Assembly: GCF_029227855.1 (NCBI RefSeq)
Contig: NZ_CP074356.1
DNA from: Escherichia coli
GTDB taxonomy: Bacteria; Pseudomonadota; Gammaproteobacteria; Enterobacterales; Enterobacteriaceae
DNA length: 64,000 nt
Reading direction: 5' to 3' (one strand)
A model generated the notes under the pieces. The model was not told the DNA's origin. It did not search any database and worked only from the letters and a program-made list of their open reading frames with translations. How positions within the stretch are numbered: the first letter of the stretch is position 1; every line of letters starts with the position of its first letter. Shown in pieces: positions 9,786 to 17,572 of this stretch. Made by a program: the position numbers and the translations under genes.

Positions 9786-10670
9786 ATGGCGAAAAGGGAG
9801 AACTACAACGAGCTGTACCTGTTTATGCAGGTGGTGCGGGAAGGCAGCTTTACCGCAGCGGCTCAGCGGCTGGGTCTTGCTCAGTCAGGAGTCAGCCGTT
9901 CTGTTCGCGAGCTTGAAGAAAGGCTGGGTGTCCAGCTGCTAGTGCGCACCACGCGTAAACTGTCGCTGACACAAGCAGGCGAGCAGCTCTACCAGAAGAC
10001 GGCATCTGGATTTGAAATGTTAGATCTTGGGCTTGCCACGCTGGCGCATTATCGAGAGACGCCCTCCGGCACGGTGCGTATCAATGCCAGCCAGCACGCG
10101 ATTGATAAATGCCTGCTGCCAAAGCTGGCGGTATTTAAACAGAGATATCCTGATATCCGGCTTGAACTGATAAATGAGAGCCGGTTCGTCGATATCATCG
10201 AGGAAAGATTCGATGCAGGTGTCCGCCTGGGGCCTGAAGTCGGCCAGGGTATGGTCGCGGTACGCATCACGCCCGATATGGAGATGGCAATTGTGGGGAC
10301 TCCGGAACATTTTCGTCGCTATGGTTTTCCGCAAACCCCGGCGGATTTAAAGGCGCATCCCTGTATCGCCTATCAGTTTGCCGACGGCAGCGTATACCAG
10401 TGGGAACTCAATCAGGATGATAAAAAAATCACTCATCGCCCTGAAGGGCAATGGGCCCTATCCGACAGCTATATGGAAGCAGAAGCCGCCCGGCTGGGCC
10501 TCGGATTGGCCTATGTTCCTGTTGAACTGGTCGCGGATGATTTAGAACACGGTAAGCTTATCAGGGTGTTGCAGCGTTACAGCCTGCGAATGGAGGGATT
10601 GTTTCTCTATTACCCTCATCGCAACGTCTCCCCCGCCCTGCGGATGGTCATTGATACATTGAAAATCTGA
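9786..10670 (+). CDS. LysR-family transcriptional regulator
   Basis: 294 aa; N-terminal HTH (FTAAAQRLGLAQSGVSRSVRELEERLGVQLL); divergent from the hydrolase-MFS pair. Confidence 0.85.
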   Translation: MAKRENYNELYLFMQVVREGSFTAAAQRLGLAQSGVSRSVRELEERLGVQLLVRTTRKLSLTQAGEQLYQKTASGFEMLDLGLATLAHYRETPSGTVRINASQHAIDKCLLPKLAVFKQRYPDIRLELINESRFVDIIEERFDAGVRLGPEVGQGMVAVRITPDMEMAIVGTPEHFRRYGFPQTPADLKAHPCIAYQFADGSVYQWELNQDDKKITHRPEGQWALSDSYMEAEAARLGLGLAYVPVELVADDLEHGKLIRVLQRYSLRMEGLFLYYPHRNVSPALRMVIDTLKI

Positions 10671-11103
10671 ACGTTAACAACGACCGACTCTTCACTGTGC
10701 AAAATTGTGTCAGGTAGTCCCTCTGCGTTCAATTCCAGGGTCTGCTTTGAGCGAGAAAGAGGGGACTATCCAGCAATGGAGATCACCCAAAAGAAAAAAC
10801 CACCTGGCTCCCTCGACAACCTTCATCCGGGCATTTAGCCTCAATCAACATTTTTATATCTGTCAGGTTACTTCATTATGAAAACTGATCATCATCGTTG
10901 TTTTTGTTGCAATAGTAGAATACGCGTATTTATTCCTCCATCTCTATTAATAACGGCAATAAACTGTTCACTTCACTGATATTTAAAATATGTATCCTTT
11001 TCAAGCTGTTCAGCGGCGTAAGAAAAAGTATTAATTATGAATTCGATGATTTAACCATATCTGTCTGATTGGTAATCATCCGTGATTAATGCTGGTCTAT
11101 TGA

Positions 11104-12024
11104 TTACGCCAGAACCCTCTCTAGCTTATTCACCGCCGCCACATACTTCGCCGGATTTTTATCTTTAAGCACCGCCAGATTGCGTTGCTTCCAGCGAATA
11201 GCCGGAAGATGCTGAATTTCAGGATAGCGATACCGCGACCAGTCAGGGCTGTTTTGCTTAAAACTGAGCAAGAACTCGCGATCCAGATCCGTAAGATGTG
11301 ACTTCAACGCCTGCGGCAGCAAAGTCGTTACTGACAGAAGCGATTCCAGCGACGTTTCCTGTTGCGTCATCCCTGAAAATTCCTGCGCGTACAACGTGGC
11401 GATCCGCTCTGTATCCCAGTTTGGAGCCAGCAACTCGGCGATGGGGCGGGGATGGCCTGCCAGATAACAAAGAAAACCGTCAAAGATCTCCCGCATCAGT
11501 CCCGGTTTCTCCAGCATATTCAGCACATCAAACAGATCGCGCGGGTGCTGACGATCAAGCGCAGCGCAGATTTTACCGCCATAAAGATCCGCCAGCGAGA
11601 CGACACTCATGGTGGTGAAGCCATACTCCATTTCCACACGTTCGCACACAGGCATTTCTGCCGGAGGCAACAACAGCCCGCGCCAGACCGGGCTAACCTC
11701 GATCTTAATCTTTGCATCAGCGGTATTCACAATGATGCGCTTTTCATCCGCTTTATTTTCCTGCCGAATCGCGGTGATCCCCGGTCTGCCGTTCAGCGAT
11801 GCAGTAATCCTCTTCAAAGCGTCGTTGATAGCCGCCAAATCAGTATCGCGATCCGCAAAGCTCTTGTACGCCAGATCAATATCCACCGACAGACGGGGAA
11901 AATCCTGCACAAACAAATTGATTGCGGTGCCGCCTTTCAACGCGAAACAGGACTCCTTCGCCACATACGGCAGAGCGGCCATCAACAGTTTGACCTGCCG
12001 GGCATAGCTATCACGCAGATCCAT
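11104..12024 (-). CDS. abiEii: AbiEii-type nucleotidyltransferase toxin (DUF1814 family)
   Basis: 306 aa; NTase motif GGTAINLF...RLSVDIDL; 14-nt overlap with upstream partner. Confidence 0.7.
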   Translation of the reverse strand: MDLRDSYARQVKLLMAALPYVAKESCFALKGGTAINLFVQDFPRLSVDIDLAYKSFADRDTDLAAINDALKRITASLNGRPGITAIRQENKADEKRIIVNTADAKIKIEVSPVWRGLLLPPAEMPVCERVEMEYGFTTMSVVSLADLYGGKICAALDRQHPRDLFDVLNMLEKPGLMREIFDGFLCYLAGHPRPIAELLAPNWDTERIATLYAQEFSGMTQQETSLESLLSVTTLLPQALKSHLTDLDREFLLSFKQNSPDWSRYRYPEIQHLPAIRWKQRNLAVLKDKNPAKYVAAVNKLERVLA

Positions 12025-12814
12025 CTTCGACTCCTTCCGGTTTAAATGCGCGTGGAACAGTAATTTGATAATCCGGCTCCAGCCAGCCGCCGGGTATGAT
12101 TTGCCGCTTTCCCGTACCTGTTTCTATACCGCTTTGATCAATATACTGAAAATAAGGGTGTCCATTACGCCGGGCAAGGTAAAGCATCACCCGGTTGGTT
12201 TTAACCGAATGGCTGGCGCGAAGCAGTGCCTGCAATTTGCGTGGGCTGAGAAGATTCAACCCCTGAAACAGAGCATCGGCATGTTCGAACGAGATTAACG
12301 AAGGAACGCCGCAGGCGATCTCATACGCGGCCAGTTCCGGAACACTGCCTGCTAACTGGCGGTCGCCAATTTTCAGTTCCGTAGTAAATGGCGTTACATC
12401 AGCGGTAAGGCCTGACGTATACAGCGTGACAAACGTTGCGGATTGTTCAAAGGCAGAAAACCATCCCGGCAGTTTGACGTAAGCCGGAAGCGCGAGCCAG
12501 ACCTGCGGCTTACCCTGTTCGGTATAGTGCGCATGACCCTGAAGCGCAAGGCTGGTTAGCCCCGCCACCCGAACAGGCTTTTCCCACTGCGATTGCAGGC
12601 AGTAAACCGCATCCACCCAATCCGGTTCACGACCCGTCCGGCAGTATACGCCGTGAGCGATCCGCCTGAGCCAGCCATTCTTCACATAGAGATAAGAGAG
12701 CTTACGATCTATGCCGTTGCGGGTAAGCCATGACTGGAGCAGCACCTGGCCGGGTAGCGTGTGCTGCATCAGCCAGTTTAGATAGTTTGGCAACTGTCGC
12801 CTCTGAATAGACAT
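12011..12814 (-). CDS. abiEi: AbiEi-type antitoxin / transcriptional regulator
   Basis: 267 aa; sits immediately upstream of and overlapping the NTase gene, the usual AbiE arrangement. Confidence 0.6.
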   Translation of the reverse strand: MSIQRRQLPNYLNWLMQHTLPGQVLLQSWLTRNGIDRKLSYLYVKNGWLRRIAHGVYCRTGREPDWVDAVYCLQSQWEKPVRVAGLTSLALQGHAHYTEQGKPQVWLALPAYVKLPGWFSAFEQSATFVTLYTSGLTADVTPFTTELKIGDRQLAGSVPELAAYEIACGVPSLISFEHADALFQGLNLLSPRKLQALLRASHSVKTNRVMLYLARRNGHPYFQYIDQSGIETGTGKRQIIPGGWLEPDYQITVPRAFKPEGVEDGSA

Positions 12815-13108
12815 TAGTACAAATATTTAAACCAGTGTAGATTCAGGGATACGCCACAGCAAGAAATAGTTTACTTATTCCTCATTTTGTCGACTAAAAA
12901 TCGACATTAAACAAAAAATTCAAACTTAATCACTTTCGGGAAAAATGTGACAAATATATGCTCGGACTGGTTGCGGGGAGCGTGTAACATGGATACAAAT
13001 CAAAATTATTGCCAGCCTCACTGATGGATTACTGGTGTCAAGAGCCCCCCTTCGGGCATGAAACGGCTGGCTAATTCTGTACAGACTGTAATCTAAGGAC
13101 GATAACGC

Positions 13109-14884
13109 ATGACATATCAGGCAATTTTCACTGGCTGGGATGATCTGACGATTGAAGACCTTCTGGTCGCTTACCGGAAAGCAAAAGCCGATAGCTTCTT
13201 TGAGAATACATTTCCTGTTGCTATCAAATTTGCCGAGTATGAGCAGGAATTACTTGAAAACCTGCAAAAACTCTTAGATCTTTTGCAGAGCGAAGATGGA
13301 TTCAGTAGCAATAAGAAGTTGATTGGCAAATTTCGTTTGTTACCGAAAAAATTAACCACAAAGAAAAAACATGAATCCCAAAATGGACACGTCCACTTTT
13401 CTAATCCTAAACGAGCAGCCGACCATTTATTTAATAATTTTGATCTGATACCAGAGTTTCGTATTATTGGTGACTTCCCGGTTGATAGTCACATTATCTC
13501 TGCACTATGGATTAACATGGTCGGGCATAAATTTGATGCCAGCTTAGATAACTGTTGCTATGGCGCGCGGCTAAAGCGTATTCGTAATGATGAATTATTT
13601 AGCGATGAGCAGGATAATCCATTCCATATCAGTGCCGTGGGTTCTTTTAGCCCCTACTTCCAGCCCTACCAAAAATGGCGTGGTGATGGCTTAAAAGCTA
13701 TACGTGACGAGTTGGAAAAAGATCGTGACATTATCGCCGCCTCACTGGATTTAAAAAGTTACTATCATTTTATTGATCCACTGGCTATAACCTCTGATGA
13801 TCTCTATAACACACTAAACATAAAACTGACTGAGGATGAAAAAGCGTTTACTGCACAGTTAGCAGTATTCTTAAAGCACTGGTCTGACGGCGCAGCGGCA
13901 TTTGGAAAGAAAATAGCGTACAAAACACCTGTTATTAATGGTGGTCTGGTCATTGGATTAACAGCCAGTCGGATCATTTCAAATATATTGCTACACCATT
14001 GGGATAAATTAGTCATTGAAAAACTATCACCAATTCACTACGGTCGTTATGTCGATGATATGTTCCTTGTAATACGCGATACAGGGACAATTACTAATAA
14101 TCACGAATTTATGTTATTGCTGCAAGATAGGCTTGGCAATGATTGCGTTTATTTGAAAAACGAGCAAAAACAAATATGGCAAATACAGCAGGGCGAGCAT
14201 TTCCAGGGTAAGACCACCATCCAGTTACAATCCGATAAGCAAAAACTTTTCGTGCTTCAAGGGAGGGCTGGAATAGACCTGCTCGACAGTATCGAAAAGG
14301 AGATCTACGAGCTTTCTAGTGAACACCGCTTGATGCCTTCACCGGATCAACTGGAACACTCCACCGCAGCTAAAGTCCTTTCCGCTGCCGGTAGTGTAGG
14401 TGAAAATGCCGATACTCTGCGCCGTGCGGATGGATTAACCATTCGTCGTTTGGGCTGGTCACTGCAATTACGCTACGTTGAAACACTGGCACGAGATCTG
14501 CCTCCAAGTGAATGGAAAGAACAGCGGGAAGAGTTTTATCAGTTTGCCTACAACCATATTCTTAGGGCTGATAATCTATTTGCACATTTTAGTTATCTGC
14601 CAAGGCTGCTTGGCTTTGCTATCAGTATGAATGAATGGCAGCACGCGGAAAAAATTGTACTTAAAGCTTACGAATCCATCAACCTGTTGGCATCGGTGAT
14701 TACTTCAGGTAAGGAAGTGAATATAAATGGTTGCAAAACTCGAGCAGTAAATGATCTTTGGCGCTGTATAAAAGGCACATTAAGCTGGCTATTTGTTGAT
14801 GCAGCGACACGATATTACAGTCCTGACAGATTATTTCTTGATAAACGTTCAAAGAAAGAAGAGTGCCTTGCGGATACATTTTAA
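13109..14884 (+). CDS. Reverse transcriptase (UG/Abi-type defence RT); likely the N-terminal part of an RT-nitrilase fusion interrupted at a T4 tract
   Basis: 591 aa; RT motifs in order: FRLLPKK (motif 1), LDLKSYYHFID (A), GGLVIGLTASRIISNIL (B'), YGRYVDDMFLV (C, YxDD); stop codon TAA begins inside TTTT at 14879-14882. Confidence 0.8.
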   Translation: MTYQAIFTGWDDLTIEDLLVAYRKAKADSFFENTFPVAIKFAEYEQELLENLQKLLDLLQSEDGFSSNKKLIGKFRLLPKKLTTKKKHESQNGHVHFSNPKRAADHLFNNFDLIPEFRIIGDFPVDSHIISALWINMVGHKFDASLDNCCYGARLKRIRNDELFSDEQDNPFHISAVGSFSPYFQPYQKWRGDGLKAIRDELEKDRDIIAASLDLKSYYHFIDPLAITSDDLYNTLNIKLTEDEKAFTAQLAVFLKHWSDGAAAFGKKIAYKTPVINGGLVIGLTASRIISNILLHHWDKLVIEKLSPIHYGRYVDDMFLVIRDTGTITNNHEFMLLLQDRLGNDCVYLKNEQKQIWQIQQGEHFQGKTTIQLQSDKQKLFVLQGRAGIDLLDSIEKEIYELSSEHRLMPSPDQLEHSTAAKVLSAAGSVGENADTLRRADGLTIRRLGWSLQLRYVETLARDLPPSEWKEQREEFYQFAYNHILRADNLFAHFSYLPRLLGFAISMNEWQHAEKIVLKAYESINLLASVITSGKEVNINGCKTRAVNDLWRCIKGTLSWLFVDAATRYYSPDRLFLDKRSKKEECLADTF

Positions 14885-16316
14885 TCATATTTCACAAAGT
14901 CTGACGAATCTAAAGGATTTACTGGATCTTCGCTTTGATTCAGCAGATTTTTATTTAAAAGCGCCATTGGTAGCTCGAGCTGATTTAGCAAAGGAACCTT
15001 ATAAACAGATCGTAAAGAGTCAGTCGGCAGAAAAACTTGTTAATCAGCGTGATAGTAAAAAAGAAGTTAAAATACTGAAATTAATGAGCGACTCATCGCT
15101 TATTGATATTGACGTTATTAAGCTATTTTTGAAATCAACCAAGAATACCCGACTGGAAAAAGTGGCTAAAGGAAATCGTAAGAACGAAAGTTACCTACCT
15201 TACATTTTCCCTACACGTCCTTTAACACCCGCTGAAATATCAGAACTGGCCCCCGAATGTGTTGGATTACCCTCCACATCCGACAAAAAACCAGATGAGA
15301 GACCGTCCACCATTTGGGCAAAATATACTCAAGCATTACGCGGAGTATGGATCAAACCGACGTTGCTAGCATCGGAGCAGGACTCAGATGAAGCGACAAA
15401 AAAAGCTCGGCCTAAGAAATTCATTCATATTGGCACAGACAGGAAACATAAAGTTGTCGTTGCGCTAACCAGCATTAAAACAGAGGAGGACGACTGGGCT
15501 AAAATGGCCTGCAATAAATCTAACTTGTCCCGTTCAAGGTACCAGCGGATTTCTGAACTGGTTAATGCAACATTGAAACTATCTCCTAAACCTGATTATG
15601 TTTTATTCCCTGAGCTTTCAATCCCGTTACGCTGGGTTAACAGTATTGCTGATCGTTTGAGTTCGGCGGGTATCAGTCTAATTGCGGGAACAGAATACCG
15701 CCACTTAGACGATAATCAACTGAAGAGTGAGGCCGTACTTGTCCTTTCAGATAACAGACTCGGCTATCCAGCGAGTGTCAAAATATGGCAACCCAAGCTG
15801 GAACCCGCCGTAGGTGAAGATGAGGCATTATTTTCAACTTATGGTAAGTCTTGGGATTCGACACTTAATGTTAAACAACGTAAGCCGGTATATATTCATC
15901 ACGGCGTCAATTTTGGCGTTATGATTTGCTCTGAACTCCAGAATAGTAAAGCGAGGATCCGTTTTCAGGGCGCACTCGATGCATTAATGGTATTGAGCTG
16001 GAATAAAGATCTAGATACGTTTGCATCGTTGATTGAATCAGCAGCGCTGGATATTCATGCCTATACTATTTTAGTGAATAACCGAAAATACGGCGATAGT
16101 CGCGTACGTTCCCCGGCAAAAGAACCCTTTATGCGTGATATTGCTCGTGTGAAGGGCGGTGATAATGACTTTGTGGTCGCTGCAACGCTGGATATCGACT
16201 CGTTAAGGGCATTTCAGAGCAGGGCAAAACGCTGGCCTAAAGGCGGCGATAAATTCAAACCGTTACCTGAAGGATTCCAGTTGGCAAAGAACCGCAAAAA
16301 GCTACCGCCAAAATAA
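14793..16316 (+). CDS. Nitrilase / CN-hydrolase domain protein; probable C-terminal part of the RT-nitrilase protein (frame +1 relative to the RT ORF)
   Basis: 507 aa as called (TTG start, no convincing RBS); nitrilase-like triad context YVLFPELSIP (Glu), VKIWQPK (Lys), GVMICSELQN (Cys); overlaps RT ORF by 92 nt. Confidence 0.75.
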   Translation: MLMQRHDITVLTDYFLINVQRKKSALRIHFNHISQSLTNLKDLLDLRFDSADFYLKAPLVARADLAKEPYKQIVKSQSAEKLVNQRDSKKEVKILKLMSDSSLIDIDVIKLFLKSTKNTRLEKVAKGNRKNESYLPYIFPTRPLTPAEISELAPECVGLPSTSDKKPDERPSTIWAKYTQALRGVWIKPTLLASEQDSDEATKKARPKKFIHIGTDRKHKVVVALTSIKTEEDDWAKMACNKSNLSRSRYQRISELVNATLKLSPKPDYVLFPELSIPLRWVNSIADRLSSAGISLIAGTEYRHLDDNQLKSEAVLVLSDNRLGYPASVKIWQPKLEPAVGEDEALFSTYGKSWDSTLNVKQRKPVYIHHGVNFGVMICSELQNSKARIRFQGALDALMVLSWNKDLDTFASLIESAALDIHAYTILVNNRKYGDSRVRSPAKEPFMRDIARVKGGDNDFVVAATLDIDSLRAFQSRAKRWPKGGDKFKPLPEGFQLAKNRKKLPPK

Positions 16317-16478
16317 GAAACTGATTTTCGCTATTAATAATCAGGGTATTTTTGCGTGAGATGTCGGTAAACATGATGTAGCCCTTGCCACTCATGACCA
16401 ATCGCAGTATCTTTCTCCCGCGCCTGCAAAATCAGGCGTCGGGATTAGCCTCCTGAAGAAATCTTATCGGCGACACAT

Positions 16479-16500
16479 GACGCGCCAGCGTCTTTTTTTG
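16479..16500 (+). terminator. Possible intrinsic terminator downstream of the nitrilase ORF
   Basis: Short GC hairpin GACGC-GCCA-GCGTC followed by T7. Confidence 0.3.
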
Positions 16501-16662
16501 TGTTGTTCGCACGGTTACATCTCAATGGTGGGCCGGGCGGGGGCGTCGCAAGACGCGCCAGTGTCCGATAAGGCTGGTAAGGCTAACCCTGCCCGGTTCC
16601 ACCACCCGCGAGATTAGCCTCTCCGGTGGTGGCTTGAACACCCACTTATCGGAGGTTGCCCT

Positions 16663-17133
16663 ATGGCTACAATCCTCACCACTGACAGCGATTTACTCGA
16701 TCTATTGACCGTCCCCTTCAATGCCACCACGGATTTCACTGTCCTTGCTGACTACTGCGCCCGCTTTGCCGAAACCCTGATTGAAACCGACGATCCAGCG
16801 CTACGACTGGCGCTCTGCGGGCGGCTTCACGCGGCTCTTGCGCTACTGCAACCCACACTACACGACCCCATCCCACCGCATCTTACCGAAAGCCTGACCG
16901 TGGATACCCTTCCCGCCACACCAGAGCACTTTATTTCCGAACCTGATTCCTTGTGCGAATACTGCCTCGCACTACTCCAGCTTCTGCTGGAACGTCCGGC
17001 GGAACCAAAAATGGAGCAAACCCTGACCGGGCTGCTGTGTGAGCTGGTCTGGTATTTCACGGAAGGACTCAAAGCCCCACGCTGGCTGCGTACCGCCGAC
17101 GGCGTAAAATTTATCAGCGAGGTGGCCGCATGA
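16663..17133 (+). CDS. Hypothetical protein, no recognisable domain
   Basis: 156 aa ORF with a good RBS (GGAGG); stop overlaps the start of the Ner-like fragment. Confidence 0.5.
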
Positions 17134-17270
17134 TGCAACAGGACTGGCATTCCGCCGACATTATTGCGGTGCTGAAAAAGCGGGGAACGCCTCTGGCGGC
17201 ACAGAGAAAAACTCATTGCGGAAGCGCTGTAAATATCGCCAGAAATCATCTGGCCTTCAAGGTACTTTGA
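17130..17270 (+). pseudogene. Ner/Nlp-like DNA-binding protein gene, internally deleted and frameshifted
   Basis: N-terminus [24 protein letters not shown] is Ner/Nlp-like; similarity then breaks, and a second Ner-like stretch (REKLIAEAL) appears in another frame. Confidence 0.5.
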
Positions 17271-17311
17271 TAGCAAAGGCAAGCAGGCTGGTTCAGTCCA
17301 GTGTTTCTCTT

Positions 17312-17410
17312 CTTGCATTTTCAGAAATGGGAGGCTGGGAGTCTATCGAAATGGTTCGTCGATATGCTCACCTCGCGCCTAATCACCTTACCGAACACGC
17401 ACGGCAAATA
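17312..17410 (+). pseudogene. C-terminal remnant of a tyrosine integrase gene
   Basis: Peptide [30 protein letters not shown] matches the conserved C-terminal region around the catalytic Tyr (RYAHL) of phage integrases; no upstream integrase sequence present. Confidence 0.55.
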
Positions 17411-17496
17411 GACTCAGTCCTGAACCCATCGGTCCCAAATTTGTCCCAGTCAAAAAATAAGGAAGGTACTAATGATGTGTAACTTATTGATTTTAA

Positions 17497-17572
17497 TGGT
17501 GCCGATAAGAGGAGTCGAACCTCCGACCTTCGCATTACGAATGCGCTGCTCTACCAACTGAGCTATATCGGC
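17497..17572 (-). tRNA. thrW: tRNA-Thr, anticodon CGU
   Basis: 76-nt cloverleaf GCCGATATAGCTCAGTTGGTAGAGCAGCGCATTCGTAATGCGAAGGTCGGAGGTTCGACTCCTCTTATCGGCACCA with encoded CCA; anticodon loop CATTCGTAATG. Confidence 0.9.

What the first reader, a model, noticed from the sequence alone, without database searches (positions are those of the whole stretch)
11104..12814. AbiEi-AbiEii-like pair adjacent to the RT locus
A 267-aa regulator-like ORF overlaps by 14 nt a 306-aa ORF with an NTase signature (GGTAINLF...DIDL). This is the AbiE type IV toxin-antitoxin / abortive-infection arrangement. It is transcribed divergently from the RT gene across a ~290-bp AT-rich spacer, so two defence modules sit side by side.
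Basis: partly seen in the sequence, partly recalled or inferred. Interest (0 to 1): 0.45.

Follow-up and report, generated by a model that had tools for sequence, protein, structure and literature searches.

The report
Ordinary AbiE toxin-antitoxin defence pair
This is a normal, already-annotated AbiE toxin-antitoxin (abortive-infection) gene pair found in about 15% of complete E. coli genomes, sitting at the fixed end of a small tRNA-Thr island whose neighbouring defence cargo (here a reverse transcriptase-nitrilase) differs between strains.

Summary
Two minus-strand ORFs (11104-12024, 306 aa; 12011-12814, 267 aa) overlap by 14 nt and face the RT gene across a 294-bp, 40% GC spacer.

The interpretation also holds.
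- The downstream ORF is an AbiEii/DUF1814 nucleotidyltransferase (Pfam 3e-35, PADLOC 4e-116) with all four catalytic motifs intact.
- The upstream ORF is an AbiEi_3-type antitoxin with a winged-helix domain.
- Both genes are under strong purifying selection (dN/dS 0.04-0.17).
- A conserved promoter carries two TGTC-N11-GACA palindromes, which looks like an AbiEi operator.

RefSeq already annotates the pair as AbiE. It occurs in 832 of 5426 complete E. coli genomes.

The link to the RT is not specific. In other lineages the same island carries type I R-M or Lamassu in that slot. In this window the RT-nitrilase is also split by a 2-nt deletion.

The "type IV" label is dated. A 2026 preprint reclassifies S. 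agalactiae AbiE as type VII, and how MenA4 neutralises MenT4 is still unknown.

Toxicity and phage defence were not tested.

Verdict: real, ordinary, already known, low interest.

The parts
11104..12024 (-). abiEii: 306-aa DUF1814/AbiEii nucleotidyltransferase toxin. Motifs: G31-G32 (I); R44, S46-x-D48-x-D50 (II); K151...R158 (III); R162-D163-x-x-D166 (IV).
12011..12814 (-). abiEi: AbiEi_3-type antitoxin and regulator, with an N-terminal winged-HTH domain and a C-terminal domain. The maximal ORF is 267 aa from ATG 12814. The probable start is TTG 12793 (260 aa).
   Evidence: The ORF is. Pfam PF17194 covers residues 12-98 and PF11459 covers residues 102-254. PADLOC PDLC02227 scores 5.1e-80. The AF2 model has pLDDT 95.8. 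Its best matches are Rv2827c/MenA4 (1ZEL, E 1.5e-9) and S. agalactiae AbiEi (6Y8Q, E 3.2e-7). RefSeq and the homologues use the 260-aa form. dN/dS is 0.09-0.17.
12011..12034 (-). Gene junction: the 14-nt overlap (12011-12024) plus the GGAG Shine-Dalgarno for abiEii (12034-12031). It suggests a bicistronic, translationally coupled operon.
   Evidence: Read from the sequence. The same 14-nt overlap is present in the Salmonella and Brenneria loci. S. agalactiae abiE overlaps by 4 nt and is bicistronic (PMC3985639).
12795..12813 (.). Proximal operator-like palindrome TGTC-N11-GACA. It overlaps the Shine-Dalgarno and abuts the TTG start. Putative AbiEi binding site.
   Evidence: This is one of only two matches to the pattern in the whole 64 kb (0.79 expected over the whole window). 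It is conserved at the same position in E. coli alleles, Salmonella and Brenneria. It does not form a meaningful RNA hairpin (z -0.11). Its function is inferred by analogy with AbiEi and Rv2827c autoregulation (PMC7319586).
12888..12906 (.). Distal operator-like palindrome TGTCGA-N7-TCGACA, upstream of the putative -35. Together with the proximal site it forms a 38-nt direct repeat (71% identity, 93 nt apart).
   Evidence: It is partly conserved: a 1-mismatch copy in ST131 and Brenneria, an exact copy in ETEC4070, and absent in Salmonella.
12834..12862 (-). Putative sigma-70 promoter of abiE: -35 TTGCTG (12862-12857), a 17-nt spacer, and -10 TACACT (12839-12834).
   Evidence: Found by eye in the sequence. 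It is below the threshold of the automatic scan. It is invariant in three E. coli alleles. The -10 aligns with TATAAT in Salmonella and TATATT in Brenneria. No transcription data were available.
12815..13017 (.). The part of the spacer that belongs to the AbiE module (35% GC). It is conserved between islands with different cargo, and homology ends at 13017.
13018..16383 (+). Swappable cargo cassette, here a UG5 RT-nitrilase (13109-16316) split by a 2-nt deletion near 14878. It is not part of the AbiE system, only its neighbour.
   Evidence: PADLOC RT_UG5-nitrilase scores 2.3e-173 and 5.8e-136 on the two halves. The gene is an intact 1069-aa CDS in L001. The deletion is shown. The cassette is replaced by hsdRMS in ST131 and ETEC4070.
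16384..17572 (.). Island backbone and attachment site: an ash-family ORF, a 156-aa ORF (16663-17133), an HTH remnant and an integrase remnant (17216-17482), and tRNA-Thr(CGU) at 17497-17572 (-).
   Evidence: The 156-aa ORF is 64% identical to its counterpart in the Salmonella island.

Best explanation
This is a functional two-gene AbiE-family toxin-antitoxin / abortive-infection operon of the AbiEi_3 + DUF1814 subtype. It is closest in structure to M. tuberculosis MenA4-MenT4.

Shown:
- abiEi and abiEii are intact, overlapping and co-oriented.
- Both are under strong purifying selection.
- Each belongs to its family by profile and by fold.
- The toxin has every catalytic motif.

Inferred:
- One promoter drives both genes (TTGCTG-17-TACACT).
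- AbiEi binds the two TGTC-N11-GACA sites through its winged-helix domain and represses its own operon.
- AbiEii is a polymerase-beta-type nucleotidyltransferase. When freed from AbiEi control, it adds nucleotides to the 3'-CCA end of tRNAs. This blocks aminoacylation and translation and causes reversible growth arrest. During phage infection that arrest aborts the infection.
- The AbiEi C-terminal domain neutralises the toxin. Two modes are possible and cannot be decided here. One is binding with induced auto-phosphorylation of S46, as for AbiEii T65 and MenT3 S78. The other is the still unknown mode used by MenA4.

The pair is a fixed backbone component of a tRNA-Thr (thrW) island. The adjacent slot of that island holds different defence systems in different strains.
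For: - Family: Pfam AbiEii, AbiEi_3_N and AbiEi_3 all score far above their gathering cutoffs, and the PADLOC matches cover the full length.
- Catalytic motifs: hG[G/S]x15DhD with R44, K151/R158 and the RDxxD pentad are all present and invariant. These are the four motifs that mutagenesis showed to be essential in S. agalactiae AbiEii (PMC3985639).
- Residue spacing: S46/D48/K151/D166 are spaced 2/103/15. MenT4 S67/D69/K171/D186 are spaced 2/102/15 (PMC7450476).
- Fold of the antitoxin: Foldseek gives Rv2827c at 1.5e-9 and AbiEi 6Y8Q at 3.2e-7.
- Selection: dN/dS is 0.04-0.17.
- Prevalence: the operon is intact in 832 of 5426 complete E. coli genomes.
- Regulation: a conserved -10 box and a palindrome lie directly before the start codon in three genera.
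- Nearest tested relative: Serratia AbiE-2. Its antitoxin is of the AbiEi_3 type. The published primers for its toxin encode MDKHSPYY...LAEWIE, which matches this subfamily. The toxin reduced E. coli viable counts 10^6-fold, was rescued by its antitoxin, and perturbed tRNA levels (PMC7725324).
- Mechanism in relatives: MenT toxins extend tRNA 3'-CCA ends (PMC7450476; preprint 10.64898/2026.01.19.700257).
Against: - There is no experimental evidence for this allele. I found no paper naming these proteins.
- Sequence similarity to every solved DUF1814 or AbiEi structure is undetectable by HMMER, even with profiles. Mechanistic transfer therefore rests on Pfam, fold and motifs.
- S. agalactiae AbiE gave no protection against 32 coliphages in E. 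coli, so phage defence is not guaranteed.
- The neutralisation mode is unresolved. MenT4, the closest structure, does not bind MenA4 and is not phosphorylated.
- The operator and promoter are consensus-level predictions. The automatic promoter scan did not call this promoter.
- Nucleotide and tRNA specificity cannot be predicted. Relatives use GTP, CTP or UTP.
Confidence: 0.85

Rival explanations
1. The pair works mainly as an addiction and stabilisation module for the thrW island, killing or arresting cells that lose the island, rather than as a phage-triggered abortive-infection system.
For: AbiE is the constant element at the end of the island while the cargo changes: RT-nitrilase, type I R-M or Lamassu. 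The island's integrase is degraded, yet the pair stays intact and under selection. There is precedent: AbiE helps stabilise ICESa2603 in Streptococcus suis (PMC11062541, abstract). S. agalactiae AbiE gave no defence against 32 coliphages.
Against: The two roles are not mutually exclusive. L. lactis AbiE and other DUF1814 TA pairs (SanaTA, RlegTA) do affect phages. The pair sits in a defence hotspot. A chromosomal island with a dead integrase has little excision for an addiction module to guard against.
Confidence: 0.3
2. AbiE and the RT-nitrilase form one functional unit, for example with AbiEi regulating the RT or with the two acting in one pathway.
For: The two are divergently transcribed from a shared spacer 294 bp long. 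The distal palindrome lies between the two genes.
Against: Only 260 of the 832 E. coli genomes with this AbiE operon carry the RT. In the others, and in Salmonella, the slot holds hsdRMS or Lamassu. Homology between islands stops at 13017, 91 bp before the RT start, so the RT brings its own upstream sequence. GC3 is 0.56-0.62 for abiE and 0.39 for the RT, which points to different origins. UG5 RT-nitrilase is reported to defend on its own in S. meliloti (title and abstract of 10.64898/2025.12.16.694600).
Confidence: 0.05
3. The pair is an inactive remnant of a degraded island, or the NTase belongs to another family such as an antibiotic-modifying or CCA-adding nucleotidyltransferase.
For: The island is degraded: the integrase and an HTH gene are truncated, and the RT is frameshifted. 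ANT(2'')-Ia and terminal uridylyltransferases appear among the weaker fold matches.
Confidence: 0.04

Closest known systems
Serratia sp. ATCC 39006 AbiE-2 (AbiE-A2 / AbiE-T2; PMC7725324)
   Same: - The antitoxin is of the same Pfam type (AbiEi_3).
- The toxin primers encode MDKHSPYY...LAEWIE, which matches the roughly 305-aa subfamily that is about 55% identical to this toxin.
- The paper's conserved S46 matches the invariant S46 here.
- It was shown to be a toxin-antitoxin pair in E. coli, with a 10^6-fold loss of viable count that the antitoxin rescued, and with tRNA levels perturbed.
   Different: It is a different genus and a different locus. I inferred the identity level from subfamily members and did not measure it on the Serratia protein itself. 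Phage defence and biochemistry were not shown for it either.
M. tuberculosis MenA4-MenT4 (Rv2827c-Rv2826c; PDB 1ZEL, 6Y56)
   Same: - It is the best structural match for both proteins.
- The S-x-D...K...D active-site spacing is the same.
- The antitoxin has the same two-domain layout of wHTH plus CTD.
- Rv2827c autoregulates through inverted repeats in its promoter.
   Different: - Identity is only 14-18%, and there is no HMMER-detectable similarity.
- Rv2827c is placed in DUF2005, not AbiEi_3/DUF2893.
- Its promoter has four 23-bp repeats, against two 19-bp palindromes 93 bp apart here.
- The mode of MenA4 neutralisation is unknown.
Streptococcus agalactiae / Lactococcus lactis AbiE (AbiEi-AbiEii; PMC3985639; preprint 10.64898/2026.01.19.700257)
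   Same: - It is an overlapping bicistronic operon with the antitoxin first.
- The toxin is a DUF1814 protein with motifs I-IV.
- The antitoxin is a wHTH + CTD autorepressor. The AbiEi structure 6Y8Q is the second-best match.
- It is carried on a mobile element.
   Different: - The antitoxin family differs (DUF4095, about 195 aa, against AbiEi_3 at 260 aa).
- The overlap is 4 nt there and 14 nt here.
- The phosphoacceptor is T65 there and S46 here.
- S. agalactiae AbiE is now reported as type VII, with a stable complex and induced auto-phosphorylation. This was not tested for the E. coli pair.
E. coli CFT073 AbiEi/AbiEii next to the K2 capsule genes (c3681-c3682; PMC12488582)
   Same: It is another chromosomal E. 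coli AbiE pair. It is reported to change susceptibility to some Bas phages.
   Different: It is a different locus (upstream of the capsule region, not thrW). Its sequence relationship to this pair was not examined.

Membership tests
AbiE (AbiEi-AbiEii) toxin-antitoxin / abortive infection system | Toxin is a DUF1814 (PF08843, COG2253-type) protein | tested here: met
   PF08843 scores 122.6 bits against a cutoff of 22.5. PADLOC AbiEii scores 385 bits over the full length.
AbiE (AbiEi-AbiEii) toxin-antitoxin / abortive infection system | Pol-beta NTase motifs I/II (hG[G/S]x15DhD with the conserved Arg), motif III (K...R) and motif IV (+DxxD), as defined by mutagenesis in Dy et al. 2014 | tested here: met
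   G31-G32, then 15 residues, then D48-I-D50. R44, K151, R158 and R162-D163-L-F-D166 are also present. All are invariant in 27 homologues.
AbiE (AbiEi-AbiEii) toxin-antitoxin / abortive infection system | Upstream partner is an AbiEi-type (COG5340) protein with an N-terminal winged HTH and a C-terminal antitoxicity domain | tested here: met
   AbiEi_3_N and AbiEi_3 match. DUF2893, now AbiEi_3, is listed among the COG5340 partners by Dy et al.. The model matches Rv2827c and AbiEi 6Y8Q over 211-275 alignment columns.
AbiE (AbiEi-AbiEii) toxin-antitoxin / abortive infection system | Bicistronic operon with the antitoxin first and overlapping or adjacent genes | tested here: met
   The genes overlap by 14 nt on the same strand, with an internal Shine-Dalgarno. 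The arrangement is conserved in Salmonella and Brenneria. Co-transcription itself was not measured.
AbiE (AbiEi-AbiEii) toxin-antitoxin / abortive infection system | AbiEi negatively autoregulates by binding repeats in the promoter | tested here: inconclusive
   The only two TGTC-N11-GACA palindromes in the window flank the putative promoter. The proximal one is conserved across three genera. No binding or expression data are available.
AbiE (AbiEi-AbiEii) toxin-antitoxin / abortive infection system | AbiEii is toxic (bacteriostatic) and is neutralised by its cognate AbiEi | not testable with these tools
   There is only indirect support: the Serratia AbiE-2 homologue and purifying selection.
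AbiE (AbiEi-AbiEii) toxin-antitoxin / abortive infection system | Confers phage resistance by abortive infection | not testable with these tools
   No phage data exist for this allele. Results for relatives are mixed.
MenT-type tRNA nucleotidyltransferase toxins (MenT1/3/4) | Bi-lobed DUF1814 fold with the S/T-x-D, K and D active-site residues | tested here: met
   [not shown]
MenT-type tRNA nucleotidyltransferase toxins (MenT1/3/4) | Adds nucleotides to the tRNA 3'-CCA end and blocks aminoacylation | not testable with these tools
   This is inferred from relatives only.
Type VII TA (antitoxin-induced toxin auto-phosphorylation) | Phosphoacceptor Ser/Thr two residues before the first catalytic Asp, and an antitoxin loop that binds the toxin active site | tested here: inconclusive
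   S46 is present and invariant. MenT4 also has the equivalent serine (S67) but is not phosphorylated. The antitoxin loop was not mapped and no complex model was made.

The most novel reading that the evidence does not exclude
The AbiE operon with its 203-bp upstream region (to 13017) on one side, and the ash/orf156/integrase backbone (from 16384) on the other, act as conserved homology arms of a tRNA-integrating island family. Whole defence cassettes are exchanged between these arms: UG5 RT-nitrilase, type I R-M or Lamassu. AbiE is the resident addiction module that keeps the slot in the genome. AbiEi, through its distal operator next to the breakpoint, might also influence expression of whatever cargo sits there. 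Separately, this pair could serve as an E. coli-native model for the unsolved MenA4-type (non-phosphorylating) mode of toxin neutralisation.
Probability: 0.2. Interest if true: 0.45.

Novelty: already known. Interest (0 to 1): 0.15.

Why it matters
It matters little as a discovery. [quoted passage not shown]

Its practical value has three parts.
1. It confirms that this window holds a small defence island at thrW.
2. It corrects the picture of the neighbour. The RT is a UG5 RT-nitrilase, it is frameshifted here, and it is only one of several interchangeable cargos.
3. This common E. coli AbiE belongs to the AbiEi_3 / MenAT4-like branch, whose mode of antitoxin action is still unknown. That makes it a convenient native E. 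coli system for settling the type IV versus type VII question.

Tried and rejected
- Sequence searches against PDB found nothing meaningful. I tried single proteins and profiles of 27 and 84 homologues. The link to solved structures therefore rests on fold comparison only, and I could not print a residue-level alignment to MenT4.
- NCBIfam has no model that hits either protein.
- The automatic promoter scan found no site in the spacer. The promoter I give was found by eye and is supported only by conservation.
- I considered an RNA hairpin or riboswitch explanation for the proximal palindrome and rejected it. The leader folds no better than shuffled sequence (z -0.11), and there is no Rfam match in 10600-13300.
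- I looked for a tRNA-derived att repeat marking the left end of the island in the window. None was found. A copy exists only in the ST131 locus.
- Functional coupling of AbiE with the RT is rejected on distribution and breakpoint evidence.
- A search for papers naming the RefSeq accessions returned none.
Full report
**Observation.**
The six-frame ORF list contains exactly the two ORFs described. Both are on the minus strand: 11104..12024 (306 aa) and 12011..12814 (267 aa). They share 14 nt (12011-12024). The toxin-side signature is there: KGGTAINLF...RLSVDIDL, residues 30-51. A GGAG at 12034-12031 lies 6 nt before the downstream ATG, inside the upstream gene, as expected for translational coupling.

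The gap to the plus-strand RT gene (12815-13108) is 294 bp at 39.8% GC. The window as a whole is 53.3% GC.

One refinement concerns the start of the upstream gene. RefSeq and almost all homologues start it at TTG 12793, giving 260 aa. That start is preceded by AGAGG, which is GGAG or AGAGG in other alleles. The longer ATG-initiated form cannot be excluded.

**What the proteins are.**
- The 306-aa protein hits Pfam AbiEii (PF08843) at 3.2e-35, 122.6 bits against a cutoff of 22.5.
- The upstream protein hits AbiEi_3_N (PF17194, residues 12-98) and AbiEi_3 (PF11459, residues 102-254), both near 1e-30 or better.
- PADLOC's AbiEii and AbiEi models match end to end, at 4.4e-116 and 5.1e-80.
- NCBIfam has no model for either.

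An alignment of 27 toxin homologues (52-91% identity) shows these residues as invariant: G31-G32, R44, S46-V-D48-I-D50, K151, R158 and R162-D163-x-x-D166. These are the four motifs Dy et al. 2014 defined, and they showed them by mutagenesis to be required for S. agalactiae AbiEii toxicity (G49, R63, D67, D69, K173, R180, D192; PMC3985639). That paper also lists DUF2893, now AbiEi_3, among the COG5340 antitoxin partners.

**Structure.**
HMMER finds no solved structure for either protein, even with profiles. AlphaFold2 models are confident: toxin pLDDT 90.4 and antitoxin pLDDT 95.8.
- The antitoxin model's best match is Rv2827c (MenA4, 1ZEL, E 1.5e-9), followed by S. agalactiae AbiEi (6Y8Q, E 3.2e-7).

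So both partners independently point to the MenA4-MenT4 pair. The residue spacing agrees. It is 2/103/15 for S46/D48/K151/D166 here, and 2/102/15 for S67/D69/K171/D186 in MenT4 (PMC7450476).

**Are the genes alive?**
The operon is present and intact in 832 of 5426 complete E. coli genomes. It falls into identity bands of at least 99%, 95-99% and 90-95%. RefSeq annotates the genes as "AbiEii/AbiGii toxin family protein" and [quoted passage not shown].

Pairwise dN/dS between the window, ST131, ETEC4070, Salmonella and Brenneria alleles is 0.04-0.09 for abiEii and 0.09-0.17 for abiEi. That is strong purifying selection on both genes. The 14-nt overlap is conserved in Salmonella and Brenneria.

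**Regulatory anatomy (inferred).**
The pattern TGTC-N11-GACA occurs only twice in the 64-kb window. Both copies lie within 111 bp upstream of abiEi, at 12795-12813 and 12888-12906. About 0.79 matches are expected over the whole window. The two copies belong to a 38-nt direct repeat, 71% identical and 93 nt apart.

Between them lies a TTGCTG-17 nt-TACACT promoter-like element (12862-12834). It is invariant in three E. coli alleles. In Salmonella and Brenneria the upstream sequence has otherwise diverged. Even so, the -10 position reads TATAAT and TATATT, the block TGGTTTAA..ATTT is invariant, and the proximal palindrome sits immediately before the TTG start.

The leader does not fold better than shuffled sequence (z -0.11), and no Rfam family matches. 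A protein-binding DNA site is therefore the better reading. This fits the autoregulation shown for S. agalactiae AbiEi and for Rv2827c, which bind repeats overlapping the transcription start (PMC7319586). It has not been tested here, and the automatic scan did not call the promoter.

**Mechanism.**
By family transfer, AbiEii is a nucleotidyltransferase that most likely extends the 3'-CCA end of tRNAs. This blocks charging and translation.
- This activity is shown for MenT1, MenT3 and MenT4, and NTase activity is shown for S. agalactiae AbiEii.
- The closest tested relative is Serratia AbiE-2. Its antitoxin is AbiEi_3-type, and its cloning primers encode MDKHSPYY...LAEWIE, which matches this subfamily. 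Its toxin lowered E. coli viable counts 10^6-fold, was rescued by its own antitoxin only, and perturbed tRNA levels.

How AbiEi neutralises the toxin cannot be decided. A 2026 preprint shows that S. agalactiae AbiEi binds AbiEii and induces auto-phosphorylation of T65, which makes it type VII. The same preprint reports that MenT4 is neither bound nor phosphorylated by MenA4. The E. coli toxin keeps the equivalent serine (S46, invariant), but so does MenT4 (S67).

**Context, and the link to the RT.**
The window is E. coli chromosome. The pair lies in a degraded island at tRNA-Thr(CGU) (17497-17572) next to proA. The island also holds a truncated integrase, an HTH remnant, a 156-aa ORF and an ash-family ORF.

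The neighbour is a UG5 RT-nitrilase (PADLOC 2.3e-173 and 5.8e-136 on two ORFs). In 259 of 260 E. coli genomes that carry it, the gene spans at least 80% of the query. It spans 3210 nt and carries a single annotation in nearly all the genomes listed, and in L001 it is one 1069-aa CDS. In the window a T6->T4 deletion near 14878 splits it.

Only 260 of the 832 AbiE-positive genomes have this RT. In ST131 and ETEC4070 the same island carries hsdRMS in that position. Homology between the islands runs from the abiEii stop codon to 13017 and resumes at 16384, so 13018-16383 is a replaceable cassette. A Salmonella island with the same backbone (orf157 64% identical) carries Lamassu LmuA/C/B plus two unknown genes next to AbiE.

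GC3 is 0.56-0.62 for abiE and 0.39 for the RT. The side-by-side arrangement is therefore that of a defence island or hotspot, not of a coupled system. AbiE's constancy beside changing cargo is also compatible with an island-stabilising (addiction) role, as reported for an ICE in S. suis (PMC11062541, abstract).

**Novelty and verdict.**
It is also already annotated and catalogued. AbiEii is listed at E. coli defence hotspots in PMC10121019. No paper names these accessions, and no experiment exists on this allele, so toxicity and phage defence remain inferred.

I rate it as already known, with interest 0.15. The modest residual interest lies in the cargo-swapping island architecture and in the pair's membership of the MenA4/MenT4-like branch, whose antitoxin mechanism is unsolved.

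Noticed in passing
window 13109-16316 (deletion near 14878): The UG5 RT-nitrilase gene is split into a 591-aa RT ORF and a 507-aa nitrilase ORF by a 2-nt deletion in a T run (T6->T4). It spans 3210 nt with a single CDS annotation in nearly all listed E. coli genomes that carry it. Only one listed genome (JNEC-KY178) shares the 3208-nt split form. UG5 systems also occur naturally with the RT and the nitrilase as separate genes (PADLOC has RT_UG5_small and RTasNitrilase models; preprint 10.64898/2025.12.16.694600). The split need not be inactivating, and it could also be a sequencing error.
   Followed up: partly
window 13018-16383; L002/L003 9918-16007 (L002) and 9918-16023 (L003); L004 2611-8083: The slot between abiEi and the ash-family ORF is a swappable cargo site. 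It holds UG5 RT-nitrilase in the window, type I R-M (hsdRMS) in ST131 and ETEC4070, and Lamassu (LmuA/C/B) plus two unannotated genes (266 and 289 aa, no PADLOC hit) in a Salmonella island with the same backbone. The breakpoints in E. coli are sharp, at 13017/13018 and 16383/16384.
   Followed up: partly
L002 6099-6349 vs window 17289-17541: In ST131 a second copy (89% identical) of the integrase fragment plus the 3' 45 nt of tRNA-Thr lies about 1.65 kb beyond abiEii, next to a full-length but stop-interrupted integrase pseudogene. There the AbiE-cargo island is bracketed by tRNA-derived repeats, about 10.8 kb apart. No such repeat is present on the left side in the window.
   Followed up: partly
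proteins P0180 (547 aa) and P0185 (537 aa): Two AbiEi_3 homologues are about twice the normal length, and the AbiEi match occupies only their first ~255 residues. They could be natural AbiEi-AbiEii fusions or merged gene calls.
   Followed up: no
[not shown]
   Followed up: yes
window 10671-11103: The 433 bp downstream of abiEii are AT-rich (38.8% GC). They contain a truncated ykgR remnant (RefSeq annotation of the identical locus L001) and a terminator-like hairpin at 10814-10793 (-). In ST131 homology to the window stops exactly at the abiEii stop codon (11103).
   Followed up: partly
window 16663-17133: A 156-aa ORF has no Pfam, PADLOC or NCBIfam hit. It is conserved (64% identity) in the Salmonella island backbone, next to the HTH and integrase genes. 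Its function is unknown.
   Followed up: partly
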